A stretch of DNA of 63,990 nt, filler included, from Malassezia furfur (GCA_052055015.1; 12 parts of 12 records of this genome joined end to end with filler, not necessarily neighbours in it), one strand, 5' to 3'; shown: positions 1 to 60,403, counted from the first letter of the whole stretch. The notes: generated by a model from the sequence alone, not told the origin. Numbers and translations are program-made.

Positions 1-524
1 CCAGCGCCGCCGTCGCGCGCCGAAGCGCCGCGCTCGGCCGCCGTCCGGCAGTACGAGCGCGAGCGTGCGCAGGAAGAGGTCCGGCGCGCAGCGCAGCGTG
101 CGCGGCGTGCAGAGCGGCGCGAGGCGAAAGAGTGGGCCGAGGAGCAGGCGCCGCGCGCGACGGGACGCGACGCGGTGCGTGAGCGCCGGCGCGAAGTCGC
201 CGCGTCGAACCGTGCAATGGCGGAGCGGCGCGACGTGGACGACGACGTGGGCGACACCATGTCGACTGATGCGCTGCTGGGCCTCGGCAATAGCTTCCAG
301 GATGCGTACGTGACGTGTAGCGTACTGACCCAGACTGGCGGAGCGCGACCGGCAGGCGCAGCGGCGGCAGGGGCGGCACGAGGAGCGTGCCGCGGAGCGT
401 GCGGCCGCGCGGAACGAGCGGTTCGCGGCGCTGCAGAGCAAGGAGGCGGCTACGATGGCGATGCTGCAGTCGGTAGGTGGACGTTGGGGAGCTCATGCAG
501 ATGGCACGGCAGCGGTTTACCTAG
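1..524 (+). CDS. 3' part of a charged coiled-coil hypothetical protein (5' truncated)
   Basis: The Arg/Glu-rich frame is restored by two 28-nt GT-AG introns (306-333, 473-500) and ends KEAATMAMLQSMARQRFT* at 522-524. Confidence 0.6.
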
Positions 525-2409
525 ACTCGCTATGTTGCACCAACTCGGCGTAGGCGGCCTCGATCATCTTCTTGATCTCGGCGTAGGTCACGACGAGACA
601 GCTGAGCTCGTCGCGCGAGGTGAGCATGATGCGCTCGTCGATGCCCGCGTCGAGTTTGTTGAGGTGCGTCAGCACGTGGCTCAGGTCGAGCACCGGCCGC
701 CCCTGCTCGTCGACGGGGTGGAAGACCATGTCGCGGAAGAGCCGCAGCGCATAGCGCTCGCCGGACTCGGCGTACTGTGCGTTCCCCTCGTACTCCGGGC
801 GGTCGTGCACCGCCTCCAGCTTGCACAGCAGGCGCACGAGCCGCCCGTTTTCGAGCTCGCGCATGAGCGCCGCCTCCTGCATGTCGGCGTGATTGAGGCC
901 CGCGCCGAGCTCGTCGGCAAGGTGCGGCGCAAGCGCCACGACGAGACCGTCGGCCGTGAGCCGCTCGGACGCGTCCGCATCGTGCGTGTGCAGCAGACGC
1001 GTCACGAGCTCGACCAGCTCCGCGCCGTAGCCCTTGCGCATCGCCTCGAGGCTGGCGTCGGGCGTGTGCCCGGCAGCGACGTTGTTGCACGCGGTGCACA
1101 GGATGAGCTTGCCGAGCATCACAAGGTCCTCGCGCTGGTGCTGCAGCAGCGTGTCCGCGGGCGGGTGCGCCTGGTACAACAGCACGTCAAACACGGCGCA
1201 CCCAGCGAGGCGCACGCGGTGCGTCCCGGTGCGCAGCACCTTGCTTGGCTCGATGCACCGCGCCGCGAGGCCCGCGGCATGGATCACGCGCAGCAGCGAG
1301 CCCAGCTGGCACAAATAGCTCCACAGCACGCGCTCGGGCACATGCATCGACGCGGGCTGCAGCCGCCCCGTGCGCCGGTCGGGCTGGAGCGGCTTGACGG
1401 TCATGTGCTCCATATACAGCGTGGTCGCGAGGGGGTGGTAGTCGTACACAAACACGATCGACGCGTCGCCAAACGCGCGCGTCGTGAACGCCTCGCGCAC
1501 CGCGACGATCGACGGGTGCCGGATTTTGCGCCAGCGCTCGACGGTGGTGATCGCCGCCTCCTGCTGCATCCGGAAGTTTTCGACGCGCCGCAGCACATAG
1601 CACTTGCCGTCGAGCACGCACGTCGCCTTGTACACGTCGGTGCGGTGCCCAAACACGCGGCTCGGGTCGCCCGCCGCGCCGGTCAGGCCGTGCTTCGCGC
1701 CCGTGCTCTGGAAGCGGGGGTCGAGCAGCGTCGTGGGCGGCGGATTCGCGCCGGGCTCCAGTGGCACCAGGTGGTGGTAGACGTGCAGCGTTTCGGGCAG
1801 CGGCGCACCCATCTCCTGCGGGCGCGTCGTGTAGAGCGCCTCTTGCTTCCGGTGCAGCGTCTCGTGCATCGCCGGGTCCATAAAGAAGGTCATCGCGGCC
1901 AGATGCGAGGGGTGGAAGTTGCTCACATGCGGGAACGGCGGCGCGTACAGGTGGTACTGCAGCGGATGCCGGACTGCAGGCAGCAGGTCGTCGTCGCCGC
2001 GCGGCGCGTCGTATGCATGCGCGTCGTATGGAGCCGCCGACGGGTCAAACGCGGGGTCGTACGCCTCGTACGTCGGCGCAGGCACGTACTCCTCGTACGC
2101 CTTCACCGGAGACGTCGCACGCGGCGTCGTAGCTCCGCGCGGCACAAACACGGGCGCCTCGGCGAGCTTGGCGGGCATCGCCGGCTGCGCGTTCCGCGGC
2201 TGGAACGACAGCTCCGCGAGCTTCGCGTTCGTGCTCGACAGTACATTCGACAGCGATGTGCCCTTCCGCGTCTCCTTCCCGCCGCCATCCTCTTGCATCG
2301 GCGCGTCCGGAGCCCGGATGGGCACCGCCGCCGACGATCGCCATTCGGGCGCTGACATCGGGGGGGAGAACGTGGTGGGGGGGACCGCGGCAAACGACCT
2401 CCACATCAT
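517..2409 (-). CDS. PAN3: PAN2-PAN3 deadenylase subunit Pan3
   Basis: PAM2-like APVFVPR, pseudokinase region (VYKA..DGKCYVLRRV, REAFTTRAFGD) and C-terminal RELENGRLVRLLCKL...LNKLDAG. The true start may be the third Met (MSAPEW). Confidence 0.93.
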   Translation of the reverse strand: MMWRSFAAVPPTTFSPPMSAPEWRSSAAVPIRAPDAPMQEDGGGKETRKGTSLSNVLSSTNAKLAELSFQPRNAQPAMPAKLAEAPVFVPRGATTPRATSPVKAYEEYVPAPTYEAYDPAFDPSAAPYDAHAYDAPRGDDDLLPAVRHPLQYHLYAPPFPHVSNFHPSHLAAMTFFMDPAMHETLHRKQEALYTTRPQEMGAPLPETLHVYHHLVPLEPGANPPPTTLLDPRFQSTGAKHGLTGAAGDPSRVFGHRTDVYKATCVLDGKCYVLRRVENFRMQQEAAITTVERWRKIRHPSIVAVREAFTTRAFGDASIVFVYDYHPLATTLYMEHMTVKPLQPDRRTGRLQPASMHVPERVLWSYLCQLGSLLRVIHAAGLAARCIEPSKVLRTGTHRVRLAGCAVFDVLLYQAHPPADTLLQHQREDLVMLGKLILCTACNNVAAGHTPDASLEAMRKGYGAELVELVTRLLHTHDADASERLTADGLVVALAPHLADELGAGLNHADMQEAALMRELENGRLVRLLCKLEAVHDRPEYEGNAQYAESGERYALRLFRDMVFHPVDEQGRPVLDLSHVLTHLNKLDAGIDERIMLTSRDELSCLVVTYAEIKKMIEAAYAELVQHSESR

Positions 2410-2421
2410 TTCGGGTATCGC

Positions 2422-59464: not shown

Positions 59465-59572
59465 AGAGCGCGCGCGGCCGTCGACGACCTCGGCGCGCTC
59501 TTTGGTGGCGCGCCGAGCCAGCCGGCCGCGGCGCCGGCGCGCAACGACGACCTGCTCGGCCTGTTCTCGTAG
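59465..59572 (+). CDS. 3' end of a probable clathrin-adaptor (beta-adaptin-like) gene
   Basis: VDDLGALFGG...NDDLLGLFS*. DLLGLF-type endings are typical of fungal AP beta subunits. Confidence 0.45.
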   Translation, partial: RARAAVDDLGALFGGAPSQPAAAPARNDDLLGLFS

Positions 59573-59594
59573 CGGCGCGCGCCTACCTACGTAT

Positions 59595-60403
59595 CTATCG
59601 ACGTAGCCATGTGAGGAAACTCGGCACGTCCTCGGCGATCTTGCCCGGCATCATGCGCTCCTGCAGCCACAGCGGGACCCACCCCGCCGAGTCGGTCTGC
59701 ACCGTCATCCTGCACGTCAGCCCACATACACCTACAACCACTCGGTCTCCTCCGCACTGACCTCGTGCACCGCCTCGACGCTCGCATAGTACGCACGCAG
59801 GTGGCCGGGCAGCGGCGCGTACGCCACGGGCTGGCTCAGCACCAGAAACGCACGCCGCTCGCCCGCGGCCGGCGCCGGGAGCGGCGGCGCACCGCGCAGC
59901 CACGGCGCAAGCTCCATCGCGCGCTGCTCGTGCGCCTCGGAGAACGGCTCGGCGTGCGGCGGGAGGGGGATGCAGAACACCAGCTCGACAAAGTCGCGGC
60001 TCGACGTCGGCCACGGCAGGCGGTACGCATTGTCCCACACCGCGACGTGCGGCGGCTGCAGCGCGTCGACGCACATCACCGACGCGAGCGACTCGATGTA
60101 CTCGCGCTCGTTCGGCGTGTGGTTGTCGAACAGGCCGCGCACAAACGTGTCGTACGGCACACGGTGCCGCGACGCGCGCGTGTGCCAGTGCGCGCCGCGC
60201 AGGCGGCCCGTGTGCGCCGACGGCGTGACGCCGCACGCGACGGCGTCGGGCGTGCCGGCGTGCCGCGTGCGCTTCGGCACGCGCTGCGCGTCACGCGCAT
60301 GCACAAACGCCTCGTGGACCCACGCCGCCAAGAACGGGGCCCACGCACTAGACTCTACGGCGGGAATCGCGTCGCGCGCGAGCGGCGCTGCGGCGAGCTG
60401 CAT
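59595..60403 (-). CDS. DUF3074 family (START-like fold) protein
   Basis: WHTRASRH, GLFDNHTPNEREYI, YRLPWPTSSRDFVEL, YASVEAV and DSAGWVPLWLQ..PGKIAEDVPSFLTW. 26-nt intron at 59710-59735. Confidence 0.82.

What the first reader, a model, noticed from the sequence alone, without database searches (positions are those of the whole stretch)
306..59735. Genome-wide ultra-short spliceosomal introns (21-24 nt) with complete fungal splice signals
Seen in sequence: I inferred 48 introns by hand. The median is 26 nt, 20 are 24 nt or shorter (one of 21, six of 22, eight of 23, five of 24) and only one exceeds 40 nt. Many are forced, because they are the only way to join two frames inside a conserved protein. 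Examples are 7177-7199 (BUD32), 13006-13027 (hydrolase), 31050-31071 and 31381-31403 (NPY1), 40924-40946 (RFC5), 52906-52927 (MPS1) and 55890-55911. They keep a GTRYGY/GTAGGT-type donor, a CT(G/C/A/T)A(C/T) branch motif and YAG, with no pyrimidine tract. The branch A lies at position 16-18 in the shortest ones, which suggests a hard minimum lariat size. Established: most fungal introns are much longer, and this size range is known from ciliates, chlorarachniophyte nucleomorphs and microsporidia. Malassezia are known for short introns. Inference: the spliceosome may be adapted to very small donor-branch distances, and gene callers with a larger minimum intron size will mis-annotate these genes.
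Basis: partly seen in the sequence, partly recalled or inferred. Interest (0 to 1): 0.8.

Follow-up and report, generated by a model that had tools for sequence, protein, structure and literature searches.

The report
Very short introns in Malassezia yeast
The window holds about 50 genuine introns of only 21 to 41 bases from a Malassezia skin yeast; very short introns are already known in this genus, but here they can be seen to cause errors in the public gene models.

Summary
An independent scan found 50 GT..CTNAY..YAG candidates of 21-41 nt, median 26, with 20 of them 24 nt or shorter. Strict full-signal matches number 59, against 6.1 ± 2.7 in 200 shuffles. For lengths 21-24 the figures are 20 against 0.7.

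Homology fixes the exact boundaries of 25 introns. Twelve of these are 21-24 nt long.

The organism belongs to the Malassezia furfur/brasiliensis lineage. Its RFC5 is 348/353 identical to M. brasiliensis and 344/349 to M. furfur. The window is 12 unlinked contigs joined by artificial linkers, so it is a real genome sample.

The trait is already in print. M. sympodialis has 5350 introns with a mean of 30 bp, 99% supported by RNA-seq (PMC5389616). M. restricta has a median of 30 nt (PMC9241646). Public M. brasiliensis proteins already imply many of these exact introns.

Two points go beyond that. The geometry is sharply bounded: the branch A is never before position 16 and never less than 5 nt from the 3' end, and 16 + 5 equals the 21-nt minimum. 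Public Rpb7, Mps1 and RFC5 models of several Malassezia species are visibly wrong at these introns.

An earlier scan note (e1-619308) reported similar 23-24-nt introns in a microsporidian.

The parts
52307..52327 (+). 21-nt intron in MPS1 (in frame, no stop)
   Evidence: All 15 of 15 aligned homologues lack the 7 residues it would encode. Signals GTACGT..CTCAC..CAG, branch A at 16.
52906..52927 (+). 22-nt intron in MPS1
   Evidence: Without its removal the reading frame has 3 stops and alignment scores fall from about 2950 to about 1130. 12 of 15 homologues run gaplessly across the junction.
53243..53266 (+). 24-nt intron in the MPS1 kinase domain (in frame, no stop)
   Evidence: 14 of 15 homologues lack the 8 residues. 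Only the M. furfur model keeps a 9-residue insert.
55890..55911 (+). 22-nt intron in a DUF1168 gene
   Evidence: Pfam DUF1168 profile 1-61 ends the upstream exon and 63-119 starts the downstream exon.
13006..13027 (-). 22-nt intron in an alpha/beta hydrolase gene
   Evidence: Abhydrolase_1 profile 34-91 upstream and 179-245 downstream, in different frames. Both flanks score as coding.
7177..7199 (+). 23-nt intron in BUD32/TP53RK
   Evidence: The upstream exon aligns to human TP53RK 7sza_A residues 52-137 (E 4e-13). The downstream exon aligns to 147-255 (E 7e-29), in another frame.
31381..31403 (-). 23-nt intron in the NPY1/NUDT12-like NADH pyrophosphatase gene
   Evidence: The upstream exon ends at NUDT12 6o3p_A residue 232 and the downstream exon starts at 234. 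The split codon supplies residue 233.
40924..40946 (-). 23-nt intron in RFC5
   Evidence: M. brasiliensis RFC5 (P0001) residues 1-28 map to 41030-40947 and 29-317 to 40923-40057.
40031..40056 (-). 26-nt intron in RFC5
   Evidence: P0001 residues 317|318 flank it. RFC_C profile 1-70 lies upstream and 73-92 downstream.
50580..50602 (-). 23-nt intron in Rtf2
   Evidence: Rtf2 profile 2-84 upstream and 87-253 downstream.
51006..51037 (+). RPB7 intron 1 (32 nt), after a 4-codon first exon
   Evidence: The six-intron model gives a 170-aa Rpb7 that aligns without gaps to P0124, P0126 and P0133.
51102..51124 (+). RPB7 intron 2 (23 nt)
   Evidence: Gapless 170-aa alignment of the spliced model.
51175..51198 (+). 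RPB7 intron 3 (24 nt)
   Evidence: Gapless 170-aa alignment of the spliced model.
51310..51334 (+). RPB7 intron 4 (25 nt)
   Evidence: SHS2_Rpb7-N lies upstream and the S1 domain downstream.
51497..51527 (+). RPB7 intron 5 (31 nt)
   Evidence: Gapless 170-aa alignment of the spliced model.
51594..51616 (+). RPB7 intron 6 (23 nt)
   Evidence: Gapless 170-aa alignment of the spliced model.
4610..4638 (+). 29-nt intron in a protein kinase gene
   Evidence: Pkinase profile 3-52 upstream and 55-263 downstream.
7854..7879 (-). 26-nt intron in a Y_phosphatase2 gene
   Evidence: Profile 1-71 upstream and 77-158 downstream.
27509..27533 (+). 25-nt intron in POB3/SSRP1
   Evidence: POB3_N profile 1-47 upstream and 50-92 downstream.
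30615..30653 (-). 39-nt intron in the ribosomal protein uS19 (RPS15) gene
   Evidence: Ribosomal_S19 profile 22-43 upstream and 46-81 downstream.
36015..36043 (-). 29-nt intron in an oxysterol-binding protein gene
   Evidence: Oxysterol_BP profile 78-102 upstream (E 0.025) and 104-262 downstream.
36132..36159 (-). 28-nt intron in the same OSBP gene
   Evidence: Profile 38-72 upstream and 78-102 downstream. Each hit is weak alone (E 0.03-0.07), but they are in order.
36305..36339 (-). 35-nt intron in the same OSBP gene
   Evidence: Profile 10-31 upstream and 38-72 downstream.
37058..37085 (+). 28-nt intron in WDR3/UTP12
   Evidence: Beta-prop_WDR3_1st profile 2-107 upstream and 109-183 downstream.
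59710..59735 (-). 26-nt intron in a DUF3074 gene
   Evidence: Profile 1-137 upstream and 151-185 downstream, in different frames.
306..333 (+). 28-nt candidate; signals and coding flanks only
   Evidence: No Pfam hit on either flank.
18107..18137 (-). 31-nt candidate in a Mob/phocein gene; a nested donor would give 22 nt (18107-18128)
   Evidence: The downstream exon matches phocein 5yf4_A residues 40-158. The upstream exon has no hit. Both donors keep the frame.
28931..28958 (+). 28-nt candidate near the POB3 3' end
   Evidence: Coding scores 0.86 and 0.99.
29191..29223 (+). 33-nt candidate (alternative donor at 29197 gives 27 nt)
   Evidence: In-frame stop on read-through.
29426..29458 (+). 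33-nt candidate
   Evidence: In-frame stop on read-through; coding flanks.
30461..30500 (-). 40-nt candidate before a 5-codon last exon of the uS19 gene
   Evidence: Signals GTACGT..CTAAC..CAG. Not checked by homology.
31050..31071 (-). 22-nt candidate before the 26-codon last exon of NPY1
   Evidence: Coding scores 0.43 and 0.42. The last exon has no Pfam hit.
44678..44707 (-). 30-nt candidate, in frame, no stop
   Evidence: Signals and coding flanks. No family hit.
44786..44808 (-). 23-nt candidate
   Evidence: Frame change with coding flanks. No family hit.
45325..45355 (-). 31-nt candidate near the 3' end of a Ribosomal_L1-family gene
   Evidence: Ribosomal_L1 profile 15-183 lies upstream.
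46035..46058 (-). 24-nt candidate near the 5' end of the same gene
   Evidence: In-frame stop on read-through. Ribosomal_L1 profile 14-183 lies downstream.
55320..55340 (-). 21-nt candidate before an 11-codon last exon
   Evidence: Signals and coding scores 0.42 and 0.80. Not checked by homology.
10470..10491 (-). 22-nt candidate, signals only
   Evidence: The read-through frame also stays open.
10531..10563 (-). 33-nt candidate, signals only
13271..13296 (-). 26-nt candidate, signals only
13370..13392 (-). 23-nt candidate, signals only
16293..16330 (-). 38-nt candidate, signals only
17591..17627 (+). 37-nt candidate, signals only
18326..18355 (-). 30-nt candidate, signals only
34949..34989 (-). 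41-nt candidate, signals only; the longest, with an atypical 3-nt distance from branch A to the 3' end
36438..36462 (-). 25-nt candidate at the 5' end of the OSBP gene, signals only
45059..45083 (-). 25-nt candidate, signals only
48271..48294 (+). 24-nt candidate, signals only
50867..50894 (-). 28-nt candidate at the 5' end of Rtf2, signals only
55534..55557 (-). 24-nt candidate, signals only

Best explanation
These are ordinary U2-type (GT-AG) spliceosomal introns of a Malassezia yeast of the furfur/brasiliensis lineage, shrunk to little more than their three signals. Each has a 6-nt donor (mostly GTACGT). A linker follows, only 5-7 nt long in the shortest introns. Then comes a branch site RCTSAC whose A lies at position 16 or later. 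After 0-4 more bases the first YAG follows, with the branch A 5-8 nt from the 3' end. Shown: the boundaries of 25 introns, because their removal restores frame and gapless homology. Inferred: removal by the usual two-step lariat pathway under intron definition, use of the first AG after the branch, and no U2AF-type pyrimidine-tract recognition, since there is no room for a tract. The shortest intron (21 nt) equals the smallest donor-to-branch distance (16) plus the smallest branch-to-end distance (5). This suggests two separate steric limits. The trait is genus-wide and published.
For: The signals are enriched about ten-fold over shuffles: 59 against 6.1 ± 2.7. For lengths 21-24 nt the figures are 20 against 0.7. 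Contiguous Pfam profile coordinates cross 14 junctions. PDB chain coordinates are contiguous for NPY1 (232|234) and ordered for BUD32. Orthologue alignments fix 11 introns: RFC5 2, RPB7 6 with a gapless 170-aa alignment, and MPS1 3. Codon-usage scores are positive only in the phase that the intron implies. Organism: RFC5 is 348/353 identical to M. brasiliensis and 344/349 to M. furfur. Literature: in M. sympodialis the mean intron is 30 bp and 99% of 5350 introns have RNA-seq support (PMC5389616, passages and Table 2). In M. restricta the median is 30 nt (PMC9241646, Table 1). A review says 'very short introns' (PMC7426719, passage). Geometry: branch-A positions among the 50 curated candidates are 0 at 15, 4 at 16, 3 at 17 and 11 at 18. 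The distance from branch A to the 3' end is 5 nt in 25 of 50 and 3 nt in one unverified candidate.
Against: There are no RNA data for this assembly, so splicing itself, its efficiency and the branch nucleotide are all inferred. My scan required GTNNGY, YTNAY and AG, so introns with other signals would be missed and the motif tallies are partly circular. Thirteen of the 50 candidates rest on signals alone. About 6 strict matches are expected by chance, so several of these may be false. Thirteen of 50 have a length divisible by three. Some of these have no in-frame stop (for example 44678-44707) and could be retained as coding sequence. The cut-offs at 16 and 5 nt rest on about 50 introns.
Confidence: 0.93

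Rival explanations
1. The frame breaks are assembly or sequencing indels, or pseudogene lesions, in a fragmented assembly, and the splice-like motifs are coincidental.
For: The assembly is highly fragmented, with contigs of about 5.3 kb joined by linkers.
Against: Each break is a 21-41-nt insert with donor, branch and YAG signals, not a 1-2-nt indel. The inserts are absent from orthologous proteins at exactly those residues. Signals are about ten-fold above shuffles. Independent chromosome-level M. brasiliensis and M. furfur gene models imply the same introns.
Confidence: 0.01
2. A subset of the candidates are not introns: some signal-only matches, and some in-frame 3n elements without stops. 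These would be chance matches or translated sequence, or be retained facultatively to give protein isoforms.
For: About 6 strict matches are expected by chance. Thirteen candidates have no homology or clear coding support. At 10470-10491 the read-through frame stays open for 134 codons. 44678-44707 is in frame with no stop and no family hit.
Against: Three in-frame, stop-free candidates could be tested: 52307 and 53243 and 30615 (contiguous Ribosomal_S19 profile). In all three the inserts are absent from homologues. The signal-only candidates have the same narrow geometry as the verified ones.
Confidence: 0.3
3. The introns are removed by something other than the major spliceosome, such as the U12-type spliceosome or a tRNA-type endonuclease.
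For: Their length, at or below 24 nt, is far below what most major spliceosomes handle.
Against: GT-AG ends, GTRYGY donors and CTSAC branch sites are the standard fungal U2-type signals. None has a U12-type ATATCC-like donor. I did not test folding into a bulge-helix-bulge.
Confidence: 0.01

Closest known systems
Short introns of Malassezia sympodialis and M. restricta (Zhu et al. 2017, PMC5389616; Cho et al. 2022, PMC9241646; M. restricta re-annotation PMC6473144)
   Same: Same genus and the same kind of intron. The published mean is 30 bp for 5350 introns with 99% RNA-seq support, and the median is 30 nt in M. restricta. Annotators there set the minimum intron length to 10-20 nt. Intron density is similar: about 0.8 per kb here against 0.69 per kb (5350 in 7.79 Mb).
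   Different: The median here is 25-26 nt, with 40-48% of introns at or below 24 nt. In the passages and tables I read, those papers give means or medians and one cumulative plot (Fig. S8, a picture I could not read). They give no analysis of branch position or minimum length.
GenBank gene models of M. brasiliensis and M. furfur (Coelho et al. 2023, PMC10410736; funannotate guided by M. sympodialis proteins)
   Same: The public proteins already imply the 23- and 26-nt RFC5 introns, five of the six RPB7 introns, and the 21- and 24-nt MPS1 introns.
   Different: They miss or misplace others. M. brasiliensis Rpb7 lacks its first 21 residues. M. brasiliensis Mps1 lacks 14 conserved residues at the 22-nt intron. 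M. furfur Mps1 keeps a 9-residue in-frame intron. One M. furfur RFC5 reads through the 26-nt intron into a false C-terminus.
Ultra-short introns of ciliates, microsporidia, dicyemids and myxozoans (listed in PMC13644364, passages read), and of chlorarachniophyte nucleomorphs (PMC6009652, search listing only)
   Same: The size class is 15-30 nt. The introns consist of little more than the splice signals, and there is no pyrimidine tract.
   Different: Those lineages are parasites, endosymbiont relics or ciliates. This is a culturable basidiomycete yeast with thousands of introns and standard fungal donor and branch motifs. The 2026 paper's list of exceptions to the '30 bp or more' rule does not mention Malassezia (0 occurrences). 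It reports that microsporidian short introns are spliced inefficiently.
Typical basidiomycete short introns, such as Cryptococcus neoformans (PMC11913375, search listing only)
   Same: The donors are GTNNGY-type, the branch sites are CTRAY-type, and recognition is by intron definition.
   Different: From recall rather than from a call, Cryptococcus introns are about twice as long, with a mode above 50 nt.

Membership tests
U2-type GT-AG spliceosomal introns | GT at the 5' end and AG at the 3' end, with an extended donor consensus | tested here: met
   All 25 homology-fixed introns meet it, and all 50 candidates do (the scan required it). Donors are GTRYGY in 46 and GTAGGT in 4. All 11 introns defined only by orthologue alignment have it.
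U2-type GT-AG spliceosomal introns | A branch-site motif with an adenosine shortly upstream of the 3' splice site | tested here: met
   CTGAC 23, CTCAC 21, CTAAC 3, other 3. The A lies 5-8 nt from the 3' end in 48 of 50.
U2-type GT-AG spliceosomal introns | Removal restores the reading frame and collinearity with homologous proteins | tested here: met
   Met for 25 introns. The other 25 were not tested by homology or gave no hit.
U2-type GT-AG spliceosomal introns | Excision as a lariat from the transcript | not testable with these tools
   No RNA data are available. For the genus, RNA-seq supports 99% of M. sympodialis introns (PMC5389616).
Malassezia short-intron class | The host genome is a Malassezia | tested here: met
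   RFC5 is 348/353 identical to M. brasiliensis and 344/349 to M. furfur. Rpb7 is 147/149 identical to M. brasiliensis. The Mps1 kinase domain is 98% identical to both.
Malassezia short-intron class | A narrow length distribution centred near 30 nt or below, with about 0.7 introns per kb | tested here: met
   Median 25 (verified set) to 26 (all), range 21-41, with 50 candidates in about 63 kb.
U12-type (minor spliceosome) introns | A rigid ATATCC or GTATCC donor and a TCCTTAAC branch site | tested here: not met
   None of the 50 donors is of this type.
Microsporidian or ciliate ultra-short introns | The host is a microsporidian or a ciliate | tested here: not met
   The host is a basidiomycete. 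The likeness is in size class only.

The most novel reading that the evidence does not exclude
Malassezia splices under two hard geometric limits: at least 16 nt from the donor to the branch A, and at least 5 nt from the branch A to the 3' end. Nearly half of its introns are then just three abutting signals, with a 5-7-nt linker between the U1/U6 and U2 binding sites. That would make this culturable, transformable yeast the shortest-intron fungus outside microsporidia. It would also be an unrecognised model for minimal-intron splicing, absent from a 2026 list of ultra-short-intron lineages. A side effect would be systematic errors in public Malassezia proteomes, visible as spurious in-frame inserts that start with V (GTN) and end with Q (CAG).
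Probability: 0.45. Interest if true: 0.5.

Novelty: already known. Interest (0 to 1): 0.3.

Why it matters
The biology is not new, because Malassezia genomics groups already annotate with minimum intron lengths of 10-20 nt. The practical consequence is real, however. Of the 8 Malassezia Rpb7 entries I aligned, 6 are truncated or carry retained or false introns. Three of 9 Mps1 entries deviate at the 22-nt intron and 1 of 9 at the 24-nt intron. Two of 4 named RFC5 entries in one cluster are wrong at an intron. These errors feed into orthologue sets and phylogenomics. The sharp 16 + 5 nt geometry is a testable statement about how closely the donor and branch sites can sit in a spliceosome. Malassezia does not appear in the one recent paper on ultra-short introns whose passages I read.

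Tried and rejected
1. A whole-genome inventory of snRNAs and splicing factors was not possible, because no genome is held for this window. Rfam at gathering threshold and ARAGORN found nothing in the window.
2. Earlier notes of this scan hold nothing for this genome. A word search gave only other genomes.
3. A 120-nt intron at 51497-51616 looked plausible from frame joining. I rejected it because the orthologue alignment shows a 31-nt intron, a 66-nt exon and a 23-nt intron instead.
4. Candidates of 17-20 nt (for example 50580-50596, 46035-46054, 59710-59729) are nested inside longer introns and have no coding support. I rejected them.
5. Pfam at E ≤ 10 gave no hit for the upstream exons of BUD32, NPY1, Mob/phocein, RFC5 or the L1-family gene. 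PDB searches then settled BUD32 and NPY1 but not Mob/phocein, so the choice between 22 and 31 nt at 18107 stays open.
6. Literature searches for Malassezia together with 'branch point', 'spliceosome' and several phrases for tiny introns found no paper analysing Malassezia intron geometry. The library lacks most subscription journals. Fig. S8 of PMC5389616 is a picture I could not read.
7. Lengths divisible by three are not clearly depleted: 13 of 50 against about 17 expected.

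
Full report
**What the window is.** The 63,990 bases are not one stretch. 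Eleven artificial linkers (44 N, TTAATTAATTAA, 44 N) join 12 pieces of 5389 down to 4527 nt, sorted by falling length. These are contigs of a fragmented assembly. GC is 62-70% throughout. The finding's span of 306-59735 therefore samples 12 unlinked places, which makes 'genome-wide' a fair description. No whole genome is held for this window.

**Organism.** The longest RFC5 reading frame is 99% identical to a Malassezia brasiliensis protein. After in-silico splicing, the 353-residue product is 348/353 identical to M. brasiliensis and 344/349 to M. furfur. Rpb7 is 147/149 identical to M. brasiliensis. The Mps1 kinase domain is 98% identical to both species. The source is a yeast of the M. furfur/brasiliensis lineage. 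Chromosome-level assemblies and annotations of that lineage were published in 2023 (PMC10410736, passages).

**Checking the observation.** I trained a codon-usage score on 14 long reading frames. It is positive on both flanks only in the one phase that each intron implies.

A scan for GTNNGY, then YTNAY, then the first AG, with lengths of 18-45 nt on both strands, gave 136 raw matches. After curation these came to 50 candidates:

| Class | Number | Basis |
|---|---|---|
| Verified | 25 | Boundaries fixed by homology |
| Supported | 12 | Signals plus coding flanks |
| Signal-only | 13 | Signals alone |

Their lengths run from 21 to 41 nt, with a median of 26. Twenty are 24 nt or shorter: 2 of 21, 5 of 22, 8 of 23 and 5 of 24.

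With a strict signal set there are 59 matches, against a mean of 6.1 (sd 2.7, max 14) in 200 Markov-2 shuffles. For 21-24 nt the figures are 20 against 0.7. For 42-54 nt there is one match against about 1.7 expected. So there is no long-intron class. Frame-joining searches up to 150 nt found none either.

**Proof that they are introns.**

- Pfam profiles run on across junctions. Examples are Pkinase 52→55 (4610-4638), Y_phosphatase2 71→77 (7854-7879), POB3_N 47→50 (27509-27533), Ribosomal_S19 43→46 (30615-30653) and WDR3 107→109 (37058-37085).
- Further examples are RFC_C 70→73 (40031-40056), Rtf2 84→87 (50580-50602, 23 nt), DUF1168 61→63 (55890-55911, 22 nt) and DUF3074 137→151 (59710-59735). 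Abhydrolase_1 lies on both sides of 13006-13027.
- Four OSBP exons map in order to profile positions 10-31, 38-72, 78-102 and 104-262.
- For NPY1, the exon before the 23-nt intron ends at residue 232 of human NUDT12 and the next exon starts at 234.
- For BUD32, the two exons match TP53RK residues 52-137 and 147-255 in different frames.
- For RFC5, the M. brasiliensis protein maps in three blocks that leave exactly 40924-40946 (23 nt) and 40031-40056 (26 nt).
- For RPB7, removing six introns of 32, 23, 24, 25, 31 and 23 nt gives a 170-residue protein. It aligns without a gap to Rpb7 of M. vespertilionis (150/170), M. pachydermatis (154/170) and Ustilago trichophora (138/170). The first exon is only four codons long.
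- For MPS1, the 22-nt intron is obligatory: 3 stops remain without it and scores fall from about 2950 to about 1130. The 7 residues of the 21-nt element are absent from 15 of 15 homologues, and the 8 residues of the 24-nt element from 14 of 15.

Twelve of the 25 fixed introns are 21-24 nt long.

**Anatomy.** Donors are GTACGT in 27 cases, GTGCGT in 8, GTATGT in 5, GTAGGT in 4, GTACGC in 4 and others in 2. Branch motifs are CTGAC 23, CTCAC 21, CTAAC 3 and others 3. Acceptors are CAG 46 and TAG 4.

Among the 50 curated candidates the branch A sits at position 16 in 4 cases, 17 in 3 and 18 in 11, then tails off. The three strict matches at 13-14 correspond to the 19-20-nt matches, which I attribute to donors nested inside longer introns.

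The A lies 5 nt from the 3' end in 25 of 50, 6-8 nt in 23, 10 nt in one, and 3 nt in one unverified candidate. Both 21-nt introns combine the two minima, 16 and 5. In the shortest introns only 5-7 nt separate the donor hexamer from the branch hexamer, and 0-4 nt separate the branch motif from YAG.

There is no room for a pyrimidine tract. The few bases after the branch are C-rich (42-45% C) but T-poor (12-14% T). Intron GC is 0.61, close to the window's 0.65.

Lengths divisible by three make up 13 of 50, which is not clearly depleted. Several of these have no in-frame stop.

**Mechanism.** The boundaries and signals are shown. The rest is inferred:

- removal by the major spliceosome through a lariat at the CTSAC adenosine;
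- recognition across the intron (intron definition);
- choice of the first AG after the branch;
- independence from pyrimidine-tract binding.

The sharp cut-offs are consistent with steric minima, but they rest on about 50 introns and no RNA data.

**What is already known.**

- M. sympodialis has 5350 introns with a mean of 30 bp, 99% supported by RNA-seq. Read mappers there were set to introns of 10-2000 bp (PMC5389616, passages and Table 2; Fig. S8 is a picture).
- M. restricta has 2150 introns, with an average of 37.2 and a median of 30.0 nt (PMC9241646, Table 1).
- Its annotators used minimum intron lengths of 20 and 15 (PMC6473144, passage).
- A review states that Malassezia genes contain 'very short introns' (PMC7426719, passage).

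The trait is therefore published, and the public M. brasiliensis models already contain many of these exact introns. I found no paper in the held library on Malassezia branch-site geometry or spliceosome. A 2026 paper on the shortest animal introns lists ciliates, microsporidia and dicyemids as the exceptions below about 30 bp and does not mention Malassezia (PMC13644364, passages).

- *Rpb7:* 6 of the 8 Malassezia entries I aligned deviate at intron positions.
  - M. brasiliensis lacks its first 21 residues.
  - M. japonica is truncated at both ends.
  - M. obtusa and M. equina carry 7-8-residue inserts after MFFL, plus deletions.
  - M. arunalokei has a false join and a 9-residue insert.
  - M. 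globosa has a 16-residue alignment gap (an insert running from VYVR… to …ESQ).
- *Mps1:* M. brasiliensis lacks 14 conserved residues at the 22-nt intron. M. psittaci has a 10-residue insert there, and M. yamatoensis lacks the region. M. furfur keeps a 9-residue insert at the 24-nt intron.
- *RFC5:* one M. furfur entry has a 4-residue deletion at the first junction. Another reads through the 26-nt intron into a false tail (393 residues).

Most of the inserts begin with V (VR, VS or VY) and end with Q, as a GT(A/G)CGT..CAG intron read in frame would. I have not seen the DNA of those species, so some differences could be real.

**Verdict.** The explanation is ordinary spliceosomal introns at the extreme short end, and the trait is already known for the genus. 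The residual value lies in the 16 + 5 nt geometry and in the concrete annotation errors.

Noticed in passing
window 5390-5489, 10875-10974, 16359-16458, 21813-21912, 27244-27343, 32628-32727, 37998-38097, 43352-43451, 48703-48802, 54037-54136, 59364-59463: Eleven artificial linkers (N×44, TTAATTAATTAA, N×44) join 12 contigs sorted by falling length. Genes are cut at each linker, and neighbouring pieces are not linked in the genome.
   Followed up: yes
window 50994-51664 (+), RPB7: The gene has seven exons of 12, 64, 50, 111, 162, 66 and 48 nt (the last including the stop), separated by six introns of 23-32 nt. The first exon is just four codons (MFFL). The public M. brasiliensis model starts at an internal Met and lacks the first 21 residues.
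   Followed up: yes
public proteins P0121-P0131, P0145, P0146, P0153, P0154, P0266, P0268: Public Malassezia Rpb7, Mps1 and RFC5 entries differ in length and carry inserts, deletions or false tails exactly at tiny-intron positions. The inserts mostly start with V and end with Q, the mark of a GT..CAG intron translated in frame.
   Followed up: partly
window 18107-18137(-), 29191-29223(+), 46035-46058(-), 50580-50602(-), 59710-59735(-): Several introns carry a second donor-like GTNNGY a few bases inside the first. At 18107 and 29191 both donors keep the frame (22 or 31 nt; 27 or 33 nt), so alternative 5' splice sites giving 2-3-residue variants are possible.
   Followed up: no
window 1-63990: No tRNA gene and no Rfam family at gathering threshold were found in about 63 kb of nuclear DNA.
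   Followed up: no
cluster of P0001: Metagenome-derived gene calls in the RFC5 cluster (337 residues and the like) look as if they come from callers that ignore introns. The two I aligned (P0269, P0271) start at internal Met codons and run through the 26-nt intron into false C-termini, so Malassezia proteins in such collections can be systematically truncated.
   Followed up: partly
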